A DNA stretch of 64,000 nucleotides from IMG/VR virus record IMGVR_UViG_3300035696_000017, positions 50,054-114,053 of that record; one strand, given 5' to 3'. Below are positions 15,117 through 28,974 of the stretch, piece after piece (the stretch's first letter is position 1; each line of letters opens with the position of its first letter). A model generated the notes under the pieces. That model saw nothing but the letters and a program-made list of their open reading frames with translations, had not been told where the DNA came from and searched no databases. The stretch comes from a virus. Position numbers and translations under genes: made by a program.

Positions 15117-15130
15117 ATGTGTTGTCGAGG

Positions 15131-15199
15131 TCGCTCCGACTGGACTCGAACCAGTGGCTCCCGCTCCATGGTAACGGGTGTCCGCCGAGATGCGGAGCG
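15131..15199 (-). tRNA. aberrant tRNA-like RNA (possible CAT anticodon)
   Basis: CGCTCCG/CGGAGCG acceptor and perfect T arm; reduced D arm; loop ACCATGG lacks U33. Confidence 0.5.
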
Positions 15200-15202
15200 A
15201 TC

Positions 15203-15300
15203 GTCACGTCGAACGGAATCGAACCGTTGCTCGTAGTAGCAGCCGCGAGCCTTTCACAGGATTCTGTGTTTTTCTACGACCTTTCCTCGAACGACGTGAC
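15203..15300 (-). ncRNA. tRNA-like RNA without a canonical anticodon arm
   Basis: GTCACGTCG/CGACGTGAC stem, T arm AACGG-TTCGATT-CCGTT, internal hairpins CACAG-AATC-CTGTG and GCTCG..CGAGC. Confidence 0.5.
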
Positions 15301-15375
15301 TGGCAGGTGGACTGGGACTCGAACCCAGGTAGCGAGTTTTGGAGGCTCGCGTCCTAGCCGCTGAACGACCCACCT
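15301..15375 (-). tRNA. tRNA-Trp(CCA)
   Basis: Cloverleaf, loop CT-CCA-AA, encoded 3' CCA. Confidence 0.9.
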
Positions 15376-15387
15376 ATGTGTGAAAAC

Positions 15388-15462
15388 TGGCACCAACGAC
15401 GGGACTCGAACCCGCGTATTCTCCTAGACAGGGAGACGTCCTAGCCGCTGAACGACGTCGGT
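15388..15462 (-). tRNA. tRNA-Asp(GTC)
   Basis: TCTCC-CTGTCTA-GGAGA, encoded CCA. Confidence 0.9.
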
Positions 15463-15472
15463 ATGCAGAAAC

Positions 15473-15546
15473 TGGCGAGCACGGCGGGATTCGAACCCGT
15501 ATACGCTTCCTAGACAGGGAAGTCGCCTCCCATGGCGCACGTGCCC
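15473..15546 (-). tRNA. tRNA-Asp(GTC), second copy
   Basis: CTTCC-CTGTCTA-GGAAG, encoded CCA. Confidence 0.85.
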
Positions 15547-15556
15547 AATGTTGTGA

Positions 15557-15632
15557 TGGTGGAGCTCACGGGGATCGAACCCGTCACCTCCTGCTTGCAA
15601 GGCAGGCGCTCTCCCAAATGAGCTAGAGCCCC
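15557..15632 (-). tRNA. tRNA-Ala(TGC)
   Basis: GGGGCTC acceptor with G3:U70, CT-TGC-AA, CCA. Confidence 0.95.
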
Positions 15633-15645
15633 ATACGTATGGAAC

Positions 15646-15918
15646 ATGAAACCGTGGGAAAAAGAACACGATGAAGACCCGTCCCAAGAGGGCGGGATGG
15701 CACTTTCAAGCCTGAAACGCACCGCCAAGATGGCTAGAGAGTTGGTTGATCTAATCGGACCCAATGACACCCTACCCGGGTGGGTACAGGCTAAGCTGAC
15801 CACGGTGTACGAGGATCTCAATGATGTTCACGGTTACATGATGGGTTTGGATCGCGGTGAAAGCCAGAGTGAGGTTCAAGAGGCTATCAACCAGCTAATC
15901 AAACGTCATCGCCGTTGA
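15646..15918 (+). CDS. conserved phage hypothetical protein (EG.MA...LP.WVQ.K motif)
   Basis: EGGMALSSLKRTAKMARELVDLI...LPGWVQAKLT; ATACGTA-N6-ATG upstream. Confidence 0.7.
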   Translation: MKPWEKEHDEDPSQEGGMALSSLKRTAKMARELVDLIGPNDTLPGWVQAKLTTVYEDLNDVHGYMMGLDRGESQSEVQEAINQLIKRHRR

Positions 15919-15919
15919 A

Positions 15920-16258
15920 TCACAGCTTGCCCTTGTGGTTCATGCCGAGGCCGGCTTCGTGGACCTTAGTGAACTTGACGTTGGGAGTGCGCTTCTGGAA
16001 ACCAAGCTGGCAAGACTTGCCAACCATCATGCCAGAATTGACCCACCACATCTGACGATACTCTTCACGGTCAGCCTCGGAATCGAACTTGAGAATGGTG
16101 ACACCAGCAGCTTTACCGTCAGCCGACTGAAGGCCAAGGTACTTGGGAACCGACTCTGAAGAACAATCAGGACAACAGGTTATGAGCCCGCCGACGCGGC
16201 GTTTCTCAGGTGACATCGGGTCGTACTCGCAATTGCAAACAATGCAGGTTCGCTCCAT
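15920..16258 (-). CDS. zinc-finger hypothetical protein
   Basis: CIVC...CPDC; class I promoter upstream. Confidence 0.65.
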   Translation of the reverse strand: MERTCIVCNCEYDPMSPEKRRVGGLITCCPDCSSESVPKYLGLQSADGKAAGVTILKFDSEADREEYRQMWWVNSGMMVGKSCQLGFQKRTPNVKFTKVHEAGLGMNHKGKL

Positions 16259-16299
16259 GAGTAGCCCAGTGTACCACAGCCAGGTAATGCTTTGCACTG

Positions 16300-16376
16300 T
16301 GGAGCTGGAGGGAGTCGAACCCTCAGTCACTCAGGTTCCATTGTCGGCTTTCCTGTGCGACTCGCCTTTCAGCCCC
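16300..16376 (-). ncRNA. minimal tmRNA-like RNA (tRNA-like domain only) or aberrant Ala-accepting RNA
   Basis: GGGGCTG/CAGCTCC-A acceptor with G3:U70, stemless D region AAAGGCGAGTCG, central helix, T arm GAGGG-TTCGACT-CCCTC; no anticodon arm and no tag ORF. Confidence 0.6.
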
Positions 16377-16386
16377 GTGTTTTCAG

Positions 16387-16459
16387 TGGAGCACGCGGGA
16401 CTCGAACCCGCCACCTCAACGTTGCGAACGTTGCGCTCTCCCAGATGAGCTAGTGCCCC
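16387..16459 (-). tRNA. tRNA-Ala(CGC)
   Basis: CAACG-TTCGCAA-CGTTG, G3:U70. Confidence 0.92.
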
Positions 16460-16461
16460 AT

Positions 16462-16536
16462 TGGCTGCGGGGGAAGGGTTTGAGCCTTCGTCTCCGAGCG
16501 TTGGATGCTCGGCGCCTTCGATCAGACCACCCCGCA
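16462..16536 (-). tRNA. aberrant tRNA with CCA (Trp) anticodon
   Basis: TGCGGGG/CCCCGCA-G-CCA, 6-bp anticodon stem with loop ATCCAAC, T loop CTCAAAC. Confidence 0.6.
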
Positions 16537-16537
16537 G

Positions 16538-16610
16538 TGGAGCTAGCGGGATTCGAACCCGCCACCTCTTCGATGCCATCGAAGCGCTCTCCCGAATGAG
16601 CTATAGCCCC
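16538..16610 (-). tRNA. tRNA-Ala(GGC)
   Basis: CTTCG-ATGGCAT-CGAAG, G3:U70. Confidence 0.92.
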
Positions 16611-16611
16611 G

Positions 16612-16684
16612 TCACCCGAGTGGGACTCGAACCCACGTTCTCTACCGTGTCAGGGTAGCGATCTCGCCGCTGATCTACCGGGTG
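16612..16684 (-). tRNA. tRNA-Val(GAC)
   Basis: CTACC-CTGACAC-GGTAG. Confidence 0.9.
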
Positions 16685-16740
16685 TTGGCCGGTCTCTCCC
16701 GGCAGTCATAGCGCGCCTGATGGGCACGCTCGGTTCGTCT

Positions 16741-16842
16741 CTACCTTCCCTTCCGCTTGTTGCGGTACTGCCGTCGCCAACAGGGCCGGCACATGTATGC
16801 CATCCCCGCGAGCTGTGCAGCGATCTGACACCACTTACACAT
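16741..16842 (-). CDS. 33-aa Cys-rich basic peptide embedded in a structured RNA
   Basis: AAAGGAGG SD; MCKWCQIAAQLAGMAYMCRPCWRRQYRNKRKGR* (two CxxC). Confidence 0.6.
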   Translation of the reverse strand: MCKWCQIAAQLAGMAYMCRPCWRRQYRNKRKGR

Positions 16843-16924
16843 TCCGCGCCTCCTTTCTTGCGAAAGGGGGACGCTACGAATCTCTACTGTGTACCATGCT
16901 GAAGCACCTCTGGTTGGGTGAGGT

Positions 16925-17001
16925 TGGTTGCAAGCCCTGGGAGTCGAACCCAGTGTCTCCGGGTTATGGGCCCGGCGAGGAAGCCGTTTCTCTCTGCTGC
17001 G
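16925..17001 (-). tRNA. degenerate initiator-like tRNA-Met(CAT)
   Basis: CCGGG-CCCATAA-CCCGG (3 GC pairs), T arm and CCA present, imperfect acceptor and D arm. Confidence 0.6.
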
Positions 17002-17002
17002 G

Positions 17003-17076
17003 TAACGGGAGGTGGATTTGAACCACCGACCTCTGGGTTATGAGCCCAGCAAGCTACCTGGCTGCTCCATCCCGCT
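17003..17076 (-). tRNA. tRNA-fMet(CAT)
   Basis: CTGGG-CTCATAA-CCCAG with three consecutive G-C pairs. Confidence 0.9.
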
Positions 17077-17077
17077 G

Positions 17078-17149
17078 TGGGTCCACCCGGATTCGAACCG
17101 AGATCACGGCGCTTAAAAGGCGAGTCTCTGCCTGTTGAGTTATGGACCC
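17078..17149 (-). tRNA. tRNA-Lys(TTT)
   Basis: GGGTCCA/TGGACCC, loop CT-TTT-AA, weak anticodon stem. Confidence 0.8.
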
Positions 17150-17164
17150 GTGTGTTGCGTTTCA

Positions 17165-17232
17165 CCTGCTCGGATTTGCACCGCTCCTCCAGCTTTCAAG
17201 GGCCGGCGTGCTGACTGTTACACTAGCGATCG
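17165..17232 (-). pseudogene. degenerate tRNA remnant
   Basis: D arm GTGT..GCAC and anticodon stem CCGGC/GCTGG recognisable; acceptor and T stem decayed. Confidence 0.4.
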
Positions 17233-17264
17233 TATGGGATCGTGACCGTGGTTACTTGCAACGG

Positions 17265-17335
17265 AGCCCCCGCTTGGAGTCAAACCAAGACCTTCGGGCC
17301 GCAAGGCCCGACGCTCTGCACTGAGCTACGGGGGC
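17265..17335 (-). tRNA. aberrant tRNA with closed or expanded anticodon loop
   Basis: GCCCCCG/CGGGGGC acceptor, normal D arm, TCGGGCC-TTGC-GGCCCGA anticodon arm, T loop TTTGACT. Confidence 0.55.
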
Positions 17336-17340
17336 GTAAG

Positions 17341-17415
17341 TGGTGGGGAGGGGAGGATTCGACACCTCCAACCGCCGGGCTAAATGCCCGGTGCTCTATC
17401 TTGAGCTACCTCCCC
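17341..17415 (-). tRNA. tRNA-Lys(TTT), non-canonical (A33, 8-nt T loop)
   Basis: CCGGG-CATTTAG-CCCGG, T loop TGTCGAAT, encoded CCA. Confidence 0.7.
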
Positions 17416-17436
17416 GTGACTACATTCTACACCTTG

Positions 17437-17510
17437 CCTCCCCGAGTGGATTCGAACCACCGACCTCCACCTTCGCAGGGTGGCGCTCTATCCAGCTGAG
17501 CTACGGGGAG
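17437..17510 (-). tRNA. tRNA-Arg(GCG)
   Basis: CCACC-CTGCGAA-GGTGG. Confidence 0.9.
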
Positions 17511-17535
17511 ATGTCATCGTTGGACGTTCACATTC

Positions 17536-17619
17536 ACAGGTTCACTGCCTGCCTCGCTCCTAAGCGTCCCGGGGATGAGTGCTCCGAAGAGCGGCCCCCA
17601 GGGCCCGATTCGAACGGGC
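17536..17619 (-). ncRNA. candidate circularly permuted tRNA-like gene
   Basis: T arm plus 3' acceptor strand (CCTGGGG-G-CC) precede a UUCG hairpin linker, then the 5' acceptor strand (CCCCGGG), a D-like hairpin and a GCAGG-CAGTGAA-CCTGT arm. Confidence 0.45.
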
Positions 17620-17649: not shown

Positions 17650-17725
17650 TGCATCTGGTGGGATTCGAACCCACAACCTACCGGGTAAGAGCCGGTTGCT
17701 GCTGAACCAGTTGAGCTACAGATGC
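17650..17725 (-). tRNA. tRNA-Lys(CTT)
   Basis: ACCGG-CTCTTAC-CCGGT. Confidence 0.88.
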
Positions 17726-18129
17726 GTTGATGAAAGTTGAGTTGCTACGTACGTTTCACTTCGGTACGACGGAAATCGTGACTTTTCTCGTCGTGGACAT
17801 TTGGGACGACCAATGTTGCGGCCGCAGTATGTCGGGGTCTGCGCGTGACAGTTCGGACAGATAAGACCAAGATTGGTCTTGTCACCATTCGTTGGGTTGC
17901 CATCACGGTGTTCAAGTTGAAGTGGGATGGGTTTGCCACGCCATTCTGTCAACCCACAATCTTCACATCGGTGACCTCGTTCAAAAATCAGTCGAGCTTT
18001 TTGAGCACCTTCGGAACGAATGAGAGCGAAGTCTCGATGAACTCGTCGCTTGTGTCCTGCTAGCTTCTGAGGTGAGTCAAACACATCTCCGCAGATCGAA
18101 CACTTGCCGTCTGCACGCTTGTAGGACAT
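17716..18129 (-). CDS. HNH endonuclease with N-terminal C2H2 zinc finger
   Basis: CSIC..H..H; CEDCG..WRGKPIPLQLEHRDGN..NL.LICPNCH; AT-richer than flanks. Confidence 0.9.
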   Translation of the reverse strand: MSYKRADGKCSICGDVFDSPQKLAGHKRRVHRDFALIRSEGAQKARLIFERGHRCEDCGLTEWRGKPIPLQLEHRDGNPTNGDKTNLGLICPNCHAQTPTYCGRNIGRPKCPRREKSRFPSYRSETYVATQLSSTHL

Positions 18130-27370: not shown

Positions 27371-28525
27371 TCAGTACGGTCCGCTACCCGACGTACCGTA
27401 CCCGTATCGGTTGCGACGACGCTTGGGAGCATACCCAAAGTCGTCCTCGTCTCCCTCCTCGAAGGGATCCTCAAGTTCGAAGAAGACCGTCAGCCCGATG
27501 CTGACAATGAGGGCGATGATGAGGGTGACGACCCATGCTGTGGTCGACGGGGTCATCTCGCTCTCCAGGTACTGGAAGTCAGCCATGGGCTTGCGGACGA
27601 AGTACTGCGAGACGTTGGTCTTTAGGTCTGCGATGACGGCGTCCTTGGTCAGGACCGGGTCGTTCATGACGTCGTCGCGGAGTTTGACCTTGAAGATCTC
27701 GTTAGTCGTCCAGCACATGACCGTCGCCCACTGGGGCTTCAGGTCGCCGTCAACACCGACCACCAGCACTACATCGTTTTTCTTGCCCCCGATCCACTTC
27801 TGCTCGAGGGCGTAGTACCAGTCCTGTGGCTGGTCTTTGACGAGGACAACGATGATGTTGGCCTGTTTGGGCGCGCCGAGCTCGGCATTGAGCTCTTCCA
27901 ACGCGGCATTCCAACCACGTGGATCGTCTACGCTGATGCCGACGGTGACCAGCCGGTTGAGGTGCCAGTAGTCGTAGATGTTCTGCGGGTTGTTGGGCAG
28001 CGTCGTCGCGTACTTCTCGGTCAAGCCCTGGTGACGGAACAGGGTGCCAGGTGAGGCCTTGACATAGTTCTCGTACGAGTGGGTGACGCTGACAGGCTCG
28101 CCGACACGGGTGGACGTCCAACGCGGGGGCTCCCGCAGGCCCTGGCGATCGATGGTGTCGATGCTGAAGCCACCCACTGTCGACGCCACGTCCCAGTCGA
28201 CGTCGAAGCTGTGTTCGTAGCAGGTGTCGCAGACCTGGCTACACGACCTGTTCTTGCCCGACCCACTGCACTCTTGTCTGCAATTGCAACTGTATGAGTG
28301 CCGGCAGCTGACCACATCACGGGTCTTGCTGGTCACCCGTCCGTTCAGGATCTCGACGTCATGCTTCGCCGAACACGACACGATGCCAGCGCTCGAACCC
28401 GCGATGACGATGTTGGCCAACAGGATGCAACCGGCCTCTTTCCAGTTGACGCCCTTCAGGAAGATGAAGGCTCCCGCTGGCACGACAACGGAGACCGCCA
28501 GCACGATCAGGAAGAATGACATCAT
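27371..28525 (-). CDS. membrane protein with Cys-rich insert and TPM-like domain
   Basis: Terminal TM helices; CRHSYSCNC..C..C..C; WIGGKKNDVVLVVG. Confidence 0.65.
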   Translation of the reverse strand: MMSFFLIVLAVSVVVPAGAFIFLKGVNWKEAGCILLANIVIAGSSAGIVSCSAKHDVEILNGRVTSKTRDVVSCRHSYSCNCRQECSGSGKNRSCSQVCDTCYEHSFDVDWDVASTVGGFSIDTIDRQGLREPPRWTSTRVGEPVSVTHSYENYVKASPGTLFRHQGLTEKYATTLPNNPQNIYDYWHLNRLVTVGISVDDPRGWNAALEELNAELGAPKQANIIVVLVKDQPQDWYYALEQKWIGGKKNDVVLVVGVDGDLKPQWATVMCWTTNEIFKVKLRDDVMNDPVLTKDAVIADLKTNVSQYFVRKPMADFQYLESEMTPSTTAWVVTLIIALIVSIGLTVFFELEDPFEEGDEDDFGYAPKRRRNRYGYGTSGSGPY

Positions 28526-28974
28526 CGGACGATCCCCATCTCCAGGTCGTTCAACACCTGGAAGCCCTCGGTGATTGCTTTCTGGAACTCCTCGAACTCG
28601 TCCATCGTCATCGACATCGCACCAGCCGTGGCGATGTGGACGCACTTGCGGCTCTGTTCGACCGGACGCCTCACTGAGTCGAAGCGATGTTCAGCCAACT
28701 CCTTCCACCGTTTCTCGTTCTCGGGAGTCTGGCGGGTGTTGTAGCCCTTGTACCTGTAACCCTTCAGCGACAGGATGATGACGGTCGAGTCACGCCGGAT
28801 CTCGACCTGTGGAAAGCCCAGGGTCGCGCCGACCAGCTTGGCCTTCCATCGCAGGTTGTCATCGCGGCTCATGTTGGACATGAACGTCCCTGGGGGCGCT
28901 CCGTCTGCTTGGTTGCCGGCCCATTCCTCCTTCGAAAGGACGGGCTCGGGCTTGTCCCACATCAGGACTGTCAT
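28522..28974 (-). CDS. hypothetical protein
   Basis: Class I promoter upstream. Confidence 0.65.
   Translation of the reverse strand: MTVLMWDKPEPVLSKEEWAGNQADGAPPGTFMSNMSRDDNLRWKAKLVGATLGFPQVEIRRDSTVIILSLKGYRYKGYNTRQTPENEKRWKELAEHRFDSVRRPVEQSRKCVHIATAGAMSMTMDEFEEFQKAITEGFQVLNDLEMGIVR

What the first reader, a model, noticed from the sequence alone, without database searches (positions are those of the whole stretch)
16300..16376. 77-nt 'mini-tmRNA': a tRNA-like domain with Ala identity but no mRNA-like domain
Seen: GGGGCTGAAAGGCGAGTCGCACAGG...CCTGAGTGACTGAGGGTTCGACTCCCTCCAGCTCCA. It has a perfect acceptor stem with G3:U70 and A73, a stemless ~12-nt D region, one central helix, a 3-nt connector and a perfect T arm. 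Established: this is the geometry of the tmRNA tRNA-like domain, and both ends resemble tmRNA termini. There is no anticodon arm and no tag ORF, and it lies among the three tRNA-Ala genes. Inference: a SmpB/EF-Tu-binding RNA that could release stalled ribosomes without tagging proteins for degradation, or act as a decoy against host trans-translation.
Basis: partly seen in the sequence, partly recalled or inferred. Interest (0 to 1): 0.8.

Follow-up and report, generated by a model that had tools for sequence, protein, structure and literature searches.

The report
Phage mini-tmRNA without a tag message
Among its tRNA genes this peat-soil jumbo phage carries a real, conserved 77-base RNA gene that keeps only the alanine-accepting, tRNA-like end of the ribosome-rescue RNA tmRNA. 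This kind is already published for one mycobacteriophage, but here it proves to belong to a large phage family that gene finders and annotators miss.

Summary
Window 16300-16376 (minus strand) folds as described: a 7-bp acceptor stem with G3:U70 and discriminator A, no D stem, one central helix and a perfect T arm. ARAGORN and the Rfam gathering thresholds miss it.

It is not a decayed tRNA-Ala. I found 86 distinct relatives in phage and metagenome contigs, and at least 60 Streptomyces phage isolates carry it unannotated. Covariation is strong: 89% of cells paired against 63% in shuffles. G3:U70 is kept in 85 of 86 and A73 in 86 of 86.

The "loop" is a structured cap: AAAG, a 3-bp stem, an ACAA tetraloop, then AA. 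No reading frame has a conserved stop, so there is no tag message.

A model built from this clade finds the published "TLD-only" tmRNA of mycobacteriophage DS6A, which has the same architecture. That form was reported to inhibit E. coli tmRNA, perhaps by titrating SmpB.

It is therefore a new, divergent member of a known kind. Caveats:
- The window copy scores below Rfam's tmRNA cut-off (34 against 47 bits).
- It has replaced the tmRNA G·A motif that contacts SmpB with Watson-Crick pairs.
- Expression, charging and SmpB binding are untested.

This scan reached the same verdict before, on another genome.

The parts
16300..16376 (-). Whole gene of the CDS-less (TLD-only) mini-tmRNA, 77 nt. RNA position i corresponds to window coordinate 16377 - i.
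   Evidence: Model R1 scores it at 93.7 bits, and it is the only copy in the 114-kb record. RF00023 glocal score is 34.2 bits.
16370..16376 (-). Acceptor stem, 5' strand (RNA 1-7, GGGGCUG), including G3 of the G3:U70 alanine identity pair.
   Evidence: All 7 positions pair in 27 of 27 clade members. G1:C, G2:C and G3:U are invariant, and positions 4-7 show 4-5 pair types each. G3:U70 is kept in 85 of 86 family members.
16363..16369 (-). D-loop analogue (RNA 8-14, AAAGGCG). It is unpaired and carries the conserved GG. There is no D stem.
   Evidence: (GG invariant in alignment A2).
16352..16362 (-). Central helix, 5' strand (RNA 15-25), equivalent to tmRNA helix 2a. AGUC stands where relatives have CGAC.
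   Evidence: All 11 helix pairs show changes on both sides in the family.
16336..16351 (-). Cap (RNA 26-41): AAAG, then CCG-ACAA-UGG (3-bp stem plus tetraloop), then AA.
   Evidence: Identical in distant phages whose stems differ. The same AAAR / 3-bp stem / tetraloop / A(N) plan appears in members found by a pattern blind to the cap. The 3 cap pairs are 96% paired and vary on both sides. A strain variant has C31>U, which keeps a G·U pair.
16325..16335 (-). Central helix, 3' strand (RNA 42-52). GACU stands where relatives have GGAC.
16308..16324 (-). T arm (RNA 53-69): GAGGG / UUCGACU / CCCUC.
   Evidence: The T stem pairs in 100% of 86 members and the two outer pairs covary.
16300..16307 (-). 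Acceptor stem, 3' strand (RNA 70-76, CAGCUCC) and discriminator A (RNA 77, tRNA position 73). No CCA is encoded; the next bases are CAG.
   Evidence: A73 is kept in 86 of 86 members. CCA is encoded in only 17 of 86.
16386..16459 (-). tRNA-Ala(CGC), about 9-10 nt upstream on the same strand. This is context: the element sits in a co-oriented tRNA array and is presumably cut out of the same transcript.
   Evidence: The same order Ala(UGC) - mini - Ala(CGC) - Ala(GGC) - Val is found in the 340-kb relative G005.

Best explanation
This is a gene for a CDS-less, 'TLD-only' tmRNA. It is a 77-nt RNA that keeps the acceptor stem, T arm and D-loop analogue of tmRNA. The pseudoknots and tag message are replaced by a short helix closed with a small conserved cap.

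Inferred pathway:
- It is transcribed with the minus-strand tRNA array and trimmed by the tRNA-processing enzymes.
- It receives CCA post-transcriptionally, because none is encoded.
- It is charged with alanine by the host AlaRS through G3:U70 and A73.
- It is bound by host SmpB and EF-Tu. The phages encode no SmpB of their own.
- It enters ribosomes stalled on message ends and may accept the nascent chain, but it has no message to offer.

The net effect would be competition with full-length tmRNA for SmpB and for stalled ribosomes, which lowers degradation tagging. Whether the ribosome is then freed productively (tag-free rescue by drop-off or a release factor) or simply blocked is open.

Shown here: the fold, its conservation and covariation, the absence of an ORF, the kinship to tmRNA and to the DS6A form, and the co-occurrence patterns. 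Inferred: expression, charging, SmpB binding and the effect on trans-translation.

My odds: about 0.9 that it is a functional TLD-only tmRNA relative, and about 0.5 that it acts on the ribosome as described.
For: Fold and specificity:
- The fold is more stable than all 200 shuffles.
- Clade model R1 gives 93.7 bits for the element. Members score at least 42.6 bits and ordinary tRNAs at most 33.4 bits.

Conservation without alignment fitting, 27 clade sequences:
- Acceptor and T stems pair at every position in 27 of 27.
- There are 4-5 pair types at acceptor positions 4-7.

Conservation in 86 family members:
- 89.4% of cells are paired against 63.3% in shuffles.
- 586 cells change on both sides against 174 in shuffles.
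- The covariation score is 0.632 against 0.07-0.09 for slid partners.

Alanine identity and the cap:
- G3:U70 is kept in 85 of 86 and A73 in 86 of 86, though neither was part of any search pattern. This argues that charging is under selection.
- The cap plan is shared with members found by a pattern that ignores the cap.

Kinship to tmRNA:
- The element is the best RF00023 match in the record (34.2 bits; the three tRNA-Ala genes score 22-28).
- Relatives with UUCGAC...GGAC score 55-77 bits, over the 47-bit cut-off.
- R1 finds the DS6A element at JN698994 28478-28557 (38.1 bits).

No message: 8 of 24 clade members and 24 of 62 others have no stop in any frame before the T stem.

Literature:
- DS6A is listed as 'TLD only', and a similar molecule 'strongly inhibits tmRNA, perhaps by titrating SmpB' (PMC4131195).

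Protein context: no SmpB gene in five carrier genomes. The complete relative G005 encodes a CCA-adding-type nucleotidyltransferase.
Against: - The window copy is below Rfam's tmRNA cut-off (34.2 against 47 bits).
- Its clade has replaced the tandem G·A motif (CGAC/GGAC) with Watson-Crick AGUC/GACU. In E. coli tmRNA that region holds G19 and A334, which contact SmpB, and G19C abolishes binding (PMC8363625). Only the G19 equivalent is kept.
- The complete phages carrying the window's cap type (G002, G005, G024, Teutsch) also encode a canonical tmRNA with an ...LAA tag. That is odd for a pure inhibitor of trans-translation.
- The published inhibition did not need alanine charging, according to PMC4131195. 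The natural role may therefore differ from the over-expression effect.
- Alignment A4 was fitted to the model's structure, which favours pairing. The alignment-free count covers only the window's clade.
Confidence: 0.6

Rival explanations
1. It is a pure SmpB sponge. The RNA binds host SmpB off the ribosome and starves tmRNA of its partner. Charging and ribosome entry are irrelevant.
For: [quoted passage not shown] No phage SmpB gene was found.
Against: The AlaRS identity set (G1:C72, G2:C71, G3:U70, A73) is almost invariant in 86 members, although the rest of the acceptor stem varies freely. A sponge would not need these. The window clade has lost the G·A motif that contacts SmpB.
Confidence: 0.15
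2. It is a working mini-tmRNA with a vestigial short tag. In this window the candidates are AUG GAA CCU GAG UGA in one frame and GCC GAC AAU GGA ACC UGA in another.
For: Both frames end in a stop in the window copy. The frame containing AUG has a stop before the T stem in 15 of 24 clade members. The cap resembles the start of the tag ORF of the related phage's full tmRNA, GCC AAC GAC AAC GG.
Against: No frame is closed in all members. Eight of 24 clade members, including the close relative L064, and 24 of 62 others have no stop in any frame before the T stem. The 15 with a stop are mostly near-identical Streptomyces phage copies. The 'codons' lie in a base-paired cap and helix only 11-14 nt from the T arm. 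The cap is conserved at the nucleotide level, third positions included.
Confidence: 0.03
3. It is a decayed tRNA-Ala pseudogene, or a chance tRNA-like fold, in a tRNA array.
For: It lies among three tRNA-Ala genes and shares their acceptor identity. Gene finders miss it.
Against: The fold is kept through compensatory changes in 86 distinct sequences from unrelated phage contexts. These include complete phages with no tRNA array, where it sits next to capsid or helicase genes. No RF00005 match was listed for this stretch, and the kept clan hit was only an 11.3-bit local match to tmRNA. The D region of relatives is tmRNA-type, not tRNA-type.
Confidence: 0.02
4. It is a tRNA-like RNA that works away from trans-translation. 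It could be a decoy for a host nuclease that targets tmRNA or tRNA, or an alanine donor for a non-ribosomal transferase. The conserved cap would be the recognition site.
For: The cap is conserved for no known reason. The window clade lacks the SmpB-contact motif. The element coexists with a full tmRNA in the complete genomes of its clade.
Against: No conserved neighbouring protein gene was found. The largest neighbour family is present in 9 of 85 loci. Nothing positive points to a particular nuclease or transferase. The simplest reading of tmRNA ancestry plus alanine identity is a ribosome-directed role.
Confidence: 0.1

Closest known systems
'TLD-only' (CDS-less) tmRNA of Mycobacterium phage DS6A (tmRNA Website tmID 11587 / Phage__Mycobacterium.9; Mao et al. 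2009 as cited in PMC4131195 and PMC11915505)
   Same: Phage-encoded and about 80 nt. It has an acceptor stem with G3:U70 and A73, a tmRNA-type D region, one short helix, a cap of A-rich bulge plus 3-bp stem plus tetraloop (GAAAA-CCG-CACG-CGG-UA), a T arm and no tag ORF. It is found by the model built from the window's clade (38.1 bits). It is unannotated in GenBank.
   Different: DS6A keeps CGAC at the helix base, scores 43.2 bits with RF00023 against 34.2 here, and has no full tmRNA hit in its genome. The window's clade has an ACAA cap and Watson-Crick pairs in place of the G·A motif. It sits in large tRNA arrays of phages whose complete relatives also carry a full tmRNA.
Canonical one-piece tmRNA (Rfam RF00023), including phage copies such as Streptomyces BE-cluster and G005 tmRNAs
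   Same: The 5' and 3' ends form the same tRNA-like domain with alanine identity. The T loop is UUCGANU and the D analogue carries GG.
   Different: Canonical tmRNA is 270-390 nt with pseudoknots and a tag ORF ending in ...LAA: ANSKFAFALAA, ANSNVASAYALAA and ANDNGALPLRLAA. The mini form has neither. The window copy is below the family's gathering score.
CDS-less organellar tmRNAs (jakobid and oomycete mitochondria, Rfam RF02544; about 65-bp plastid genes of Mallomonadaceae, PMC11915505)
   Same: They are reduced to little more than the tRNA-like domain and lack a tag reading frame. They are thought to act with SmpB in some reduced form of rescue.
   Different: The lineage differs, and mitochondrial forms are usually permuted two-piece genes. 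No RF02544 match appears at E up to 10. The resemblance is functional and is not a membership.
tRNA-Ala
   Same: G1:C72, G2:C71, G3:U70, A73 and the T arm. The window's tRNA-Ala genes flank the element.
   Different: The element has no D stem, anticodon arm or anticodon. ARAGORN does not call it, and no Rfam tRNA match is listed for it.

Membership tests
TLD-only (CDS-less) tmRNA, DS6A type | 7-bp acceptor stem with G3:U70 and discriminator A73 (alanine identity) | tested here: met
   Invariant in 27 of 27 clade members. Kept in 85 of 86 (G3:U70) and 86 of 86 (A73) family members.
TLD-only (CDS-less) tmRNA, DS6A type | T arm present; D stem and anticodon arm absent; one short helix in place of helix 2, the pseudoknots and the message | tested here: met
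   Total length is 77 nt.
TLD-only (CDS-less) tmRNA, DS6A type | No tag reading frame | tested here: met
   No frame has a stop in all members. Eight of 24 clade members and 24 of 62 others have none before the T stem. ARAGORN reports no tmRNA or tag here.
TLD-only (CDS-less) tmRNA, DS6A type | Detectable homology to the DS6A element | tested here: met
   R1, built only from the window's clade, hits JN698994 28478-28557 at 38.1 bits, E about 9e-8. It is the only hit in the 50 kb searched and has the same segment order.
tmRNA (Rfam RF00023) | Score at or above the curated gathering threshold (47 bits) | tested here: not met
   The window element scores 34.2 bits and is the best hit in the record. 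Relatives with the UUCGAC...GGAC motif score 55-77 bits and DS6A scores 43.2.
tmRNA (Rfam RF00023) | tmRNA-specific base of helix 2: 5'-UCGAC and 3'-GGAC forming tandem G·A pairs, the SmpB contact (E. coli G19 and A334) | tested here: not met
   The window has AGUC/GACU, all Watson-Crick, and keeps only the G19 equivalent. The motif is present in most relatives, including some with the same ACAA cap (L190, L197, L195). The contact residues come from PMC8363625.
tmRNA (Rfam RF00023) | mRNA-like domain with resume codon, tag ORF and pseudoknots | tested here: not met
   Absent by length and by the frame analysis.
tmRNA, functional definition | Alanylation by AlaRS; binding of SmpB and EF-Tu; entry into stalled ribosomes | not testable with these tools
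   Only the sequence determinants can be read. No SmpB gene was found in five carrier genomes, so a host SmpB would be used.
tmRNA, functional definition | Expressed and processed as a discrete small RNA | not testable with these tools
   No RNA run holds the stretch. This is not counted for or against.
tRNA (Rfam RF00005) | Cloverleaf with D arm and anticodon arm | tested here: not met
   ARAGORN does not call it. No RF00005 match at gathering or at E up to 10.
Mitochondrial tmRNA (Rfam RF02544) | Match to the family model | tested here: not met
   No match at E up to 10 in window 16150-16550.

The most novel reading that the evidence does not exclude
Tag-less mini-tmRNAs may be a widespread phage device that has gone unannotated, present in more than a hundred lineages across Actinobacteria phages and uncultured phages. 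Their conserved cap (AAAR, a 3-bp stem, a tetraloop) would be a functional module of its own, for example a second SmpB or ribosome contact. In tRNA-array phages the mini form and a phage-encoded full tmRNA would work as a pair that decides which stalled ribosomes lead to tagged, degraded products and which do not. The window's clade, having lost the G·A SmpB-contact motif, may have moved to a different partner.
Probability: 0.25. Interest if true: 0.7.

Novelty: new member of a known kind. Interest (0 to 1): 0.45.

Why it matters
Trans-translation is the main ribosome-rescue route of bacteria and a drug target. A natural, phage-borne RNA that keeps only the entry half of tmRNA is a ready-made probe of what happens when a stalled ribosome accepts alanine but gets no message.

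The kind itself is published for one phage. What this window adds is scale and anatomy:
- The gene is missed by ARAGORN and by Rfam gathering thresholds.
- It is unannotated in at least 60 sequenced Streptomyces phage isolates, which can be grown and engineered.
- It keeps alanine identity almost without exception.
- It has a conserved cap of unknown role.
- In complete genomes of this clade it stands beside a full phage tmRNA.

That makes one question directly testable in culturable phage-host pairs: is it an inhibitor of tagging or a tag-free rescuer?

Tried and rejected
- **Expression.** No RNA holder was listed for window 15200-17600; only DNA runs from peat, moss, soil and freshwater metagenomes hold it. 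Nothing can be said about expression.
- **Strain variation.** Laying contigs of four DNA runs gave two substitutions and a 47-nt replacement of the upstream spacer. Each comes from single low-depth contigs and is anecdotal.
- **Near-identical phage records.** Megablast of the region against phage records found nothing.
- **Pattern noise.** The exact 16-mer of the cap gave mostly chance hits in viral contigs.
- **Bacterial genomes.** The genome-contig scan gave 42 pattern hits, none in a tRNA-like context. This tests only the ACAA cap pattern and does not show absence of other forms.
- **Alignment.** MAFFT misaligned the 5' ends of members with longer D regions. I used a 15-sequence subset and model-based alignment instead.
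- **Trans partner.** A sequence complementary to the cap was sought in the window and not found (one 3-mismatch hit, at chance level).
- **Protein partner.** Neighbours differ between lineages (capsid, DnaB-like helicase, tRNAs), and the largest family is in 9 of 85 loci. The small ORFs next to the element have no Pfam match.
- **Phage-encoded factors.** No SmpB or peptidyl-tRNA hydrolase was found in five carriers.
- **Possible relative.** The acidobacterial jumbo phage Tunturi_5 has no match to the model.
- **Literature access.** Mao et al. 2009 and Jacob et al. 2004 are not held. Their content is cited only through PMC4131195 and PMC11915505.
- **Anti-CRISPR lead.** AcrIIIA1 concerns fragments of host tRNAs and tmRNA, not a phage gene.
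- **16S rRNA resemblance.** From memory, the cap resembles 16S rRNA positions 1492-1510. This was not tested and I dropped it.

Full report
**1. What is there.**
It folds, alone, into the shape described. There is a 7-bp acceptor stem whose third pair is G·U, a discriminator A, seven unpaired bases containing GG, one central helix and a perfect T arm. The energy is -33.5 kcal/mol, z = -3.0, and no shuffle of 200 folds as well.

ARAGORN finds 23 tRNAs in the window but not this element. No Rfam family reaches its gathering score. In a permissive scan of 16150-16550 the only clan hit kept on the element is a local 11.3-bit match of the T arm to tmRNA. There is no tRNA or mitochondrial-tmRNA match. 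The element lies 9-10 nt downstream of tRNA-Ala(CGC), on the same strand, inside a long minus-strand tRNA array and between the three tRNA-Ala genes.

**2. It is a conserved gene, not a relic.**
BLAST against phage records matched the element itself in Streptomyces phages of about 131-134 kb. There it lies in an unannotated gap between tRNA-Leu and tRNA-Val. At least 60 listed records carry it with no feature annotated.

The stems differ between the window and these phages, while the 16 bases at the top are identical. Pattern scans seeded on that top, in viral, metagenome and genome collections, gave 27 distinct tRNA-like sequences, all from phage or metagenome contigs.

An alignment-free count on these 27 shows the following:
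- All seven acceptor positions and all five T-stem positions pair in every sequence.
- G1:C, G2:C and G3:U are invariant.
- Positions 4-7 show four or five different pair types each.

The top was part of those patterns, so its invariance within this set is by construction. I therefore ran a scan blind to it, TTCGAC, 20-45 bases, GGAC NN GGGTTCRA.

A covariance model built from 15 well-aligned clade members separates members (at least 42.6 bits) from ordinary tRNAs (at most 33.4 bits). It finds a single copy in the window and in the whole 114-kb record. It aligned 86 distinct members. On that alignment:

| Measure | Observed | Control |
|---|---|---|
| Cells paired | 89.4% | 63.3% (shuffles) |
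| Cells changed on both sides | 586 | 174 (shuffles) |
| Covariation score | 0.632 | 0.07-0.09 (slid partners) |

The alignment is fitted to the model, which favours pairing. The alignment-free count agrees for the window's clade.

**3. Anatomy.**
The 16-nt "loop" is a structured cap: AAAG, a 3-bp stem CCG/UGG closed by an ACAA tetraloop, then AA. Members found by the scan blind to the top have the same plan with other letters. They show an A-rich bulge (AAAG in 42 of 86), a 3-bp stem (mostly CCG/CGG), a tetraloop (ACAA, CACG, CAUG, GCAA and others) and one or two bases starting with A. The three cap pairs are 96% paired and vary on both sides. A strain variant in a metagenome run has C31>U, which keeps a G·U pair. 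This comes from one low-depth contig.

There is no message. Counting from the cap, no frame has a stop in all members. Eight of 24 clade members and 24 of 62 others have no stop in any frame before the T stem. The two short frames that close in the window copy do not hold in close relatives such as L064 and L080. CCA is not encoded here and is encoded in only 17 of 86 members.

**4. Kinship.**
The Rfam tmRNA model, run glocally, gives the element 34.2 bits. That is the best match in the record but below the 47-bit cut-off; the three tRNA-Ala genes score 22-28 bits. Relatives with the UUCGAC...GGAC signature score 55-77 bits, above the cut-off.

The literature already names this form. Hudson, Lau and Williams list "Mycobacterium phage DS6A (TLD only)" and note that a similar molecule, chargeable or not, strongly inhibits tmRNA, perhaps by titrating SmpB (PMC4131195). 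The 2025 tmRNA database paper repeats that the DS6A form was shown to inhibit endogenous tmRNA in E. coli. It also groups it with CDS-less organellar tmRNAs (PMC11915505).

My clade model finds exactly one hit in the first 50 kb of DS6A, at 28478-28557. The hit is unannotated and has the same segment order and cap plan (38.1 bits). The window element is therefore a divergent member of that known kind.

Two defining tmRNA features are not met by this copy: the Rfam threshold and the tandem G·A motif at the base of the helix. The window has Watson-Crick AGUC/GACU where relatives have CGAC/GGAC. In E. coli that region carries G19 and A334, which contact SmpB (PMC8363625). The G19 equivalent is kept.

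**5. Context.**
The window is part of a 114-kb fragment, estimated 31% complete. It shares tRNA-array order and 66-72% nucleotide identity in coding stretches with fragment G001. It shares the order Ala-mini-Ala-Ala-Val with the complete 340-kb phage G005.

The four complete genomes with the window's cap type (G002, G005, G024, Teutsch) also encode a canonical tmRNA. The tags were read in three of them: ANSNVASAYALAA, ANDNGALPLRLAA and ANSKFAFALAA. A fifth complete genome, G008, has the other cap type and also carries both forms.

This is not general. Five phages rated 92-100% complete (G006, G010, G012, G013, G015) and DS6A have only the mini form. Some of these have no tRNA array at all, and the gene sits beside capsid or helicase genes.

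No carrier tested encodes SmpB or a peptidyl-tRNA hydrolase. G005 encodes a CCA-adding-type enzyme. ARAGORN misses every member tested. Further isolates carry an unannotated copy: Streptomyces phages pSt2308, LuckySocke, GiJojo, Alone3 and BRock, and Pontimonas phage phiPsal1.

**6. How it most likely works.**
The general model of trans-translation puts alanyl-TLD with SmpB and EF-Tu into the empty A site, where it takes over the nascent chain (PMC3929946). A TLD-only RNA can in principle do those steps but cannot supply a resume codon.

The AlaRS identity set is almost invariant while the rest of the acceptor stem drifts. This argues that charging, and hence ribosome entry, is selected. That goes beyond a simple SmpB sponge. 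I therefore favour a charged competitor that diverts SmpB and stalled ribosomes from tagging. Whether the ribosome is then released is an open question. The coexistence with a full phage tmRNA and the lost G·A motif in this clade are the main facts this reading does not explain.

**7. Novelty.**
The kind is known, from one phage and one over-expression experiment. In the held literature I found no description of the family's breadth, its cap, or its presence in Streptomyces phages.

The scan's own notes show that another agent reached the same verdict on a different genome (e1-5863156). Another reading of this same stretch proposed a vestigial 5-codon tag (e1-6050163), which my frame counts contradict.

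Noticed in passing
window 16462-16536 (-): ARAGORN calls a tRNA-Trp(CCA) wedged between two tRNA-Ala genes. The Rfam tRNA model gives it only 37.2 bits, with an oversized anticodon-loop region. It is an odd tRNA.
   Followed up: no
window 15129-15220 (-) and 17263-17335 (-): ARAGORN reports two 'tRNA-???' genes with two-base anticodons, meaning irregular anticodon loops. The second still scores 54 bits with Rfam tRNA.
   Followed up: no
window 15920-16258 (-): A 112-aa cysteine-rich ORF with no Pfam match lies directly downstream of the mini-tmRNA. The syntenic gap in the 340-kb relative G005 (L343 1450-1501) is only about 50 nt, so the ORF is absent there.
   Followed up: partly
window 17716-18129 (-): A 137-aa ORF inside the tRNA array has weak, sub-threshold C2H2 zinc-finger matches.
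   Followed up: no
window 16377-16384, 16304 and 16346: In contigs of two other metagenome runs, the 8-nt spacer between the mini-tmRNA and tRNA-Ala(CGC) is replaced by 47 other letters. One of the two also has C31>U in the cap stem and C73>G in the acceptor stem. The possible compensating base at 16373 lies too near the joint to be reported.
   Followed up: partly
L342 1503-1862 (-), phage G005: The full tmRNA of the 340-kb relative starts its tag ORF GCC AAC GAC AAC GG (tag ANDNGALPLRLAA). The mini-tmRNA cap reads GCC GAC AAU GG. This may be a relic of the resume region or a coincidence.
   Followed up: no
L224 6339-7511 (-) and L229 1846-2703 (+): In two groups of smaller uncultured phages the mini-tmRNA stands alone, with no tRNAs nearby, just upstream of a major capsid gene (8 loci) or a DnaB-like helicase gene (9 loci) on the same strand.
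   Followed up: partly
GenBank PP725410.1 17025-17102 (Streptomyces phage GiJojo): A 'hypothetical protein' CDS (gene 44) is annotated over the mini-tmRNA match. In the other isolates the stretch has no feature at all.
   Followed up: no
L172 12189-12273 (+): One metagenome member with the same ACAA cap appears to have a regular D stem (GCUCC...GGAGC) and a 5-bp stem under the cap, so it is closer to a cloverleaf. It scores only 31.5 bits with the clade model. It might be an intermediate form or a separate invention.
   Followed up: no
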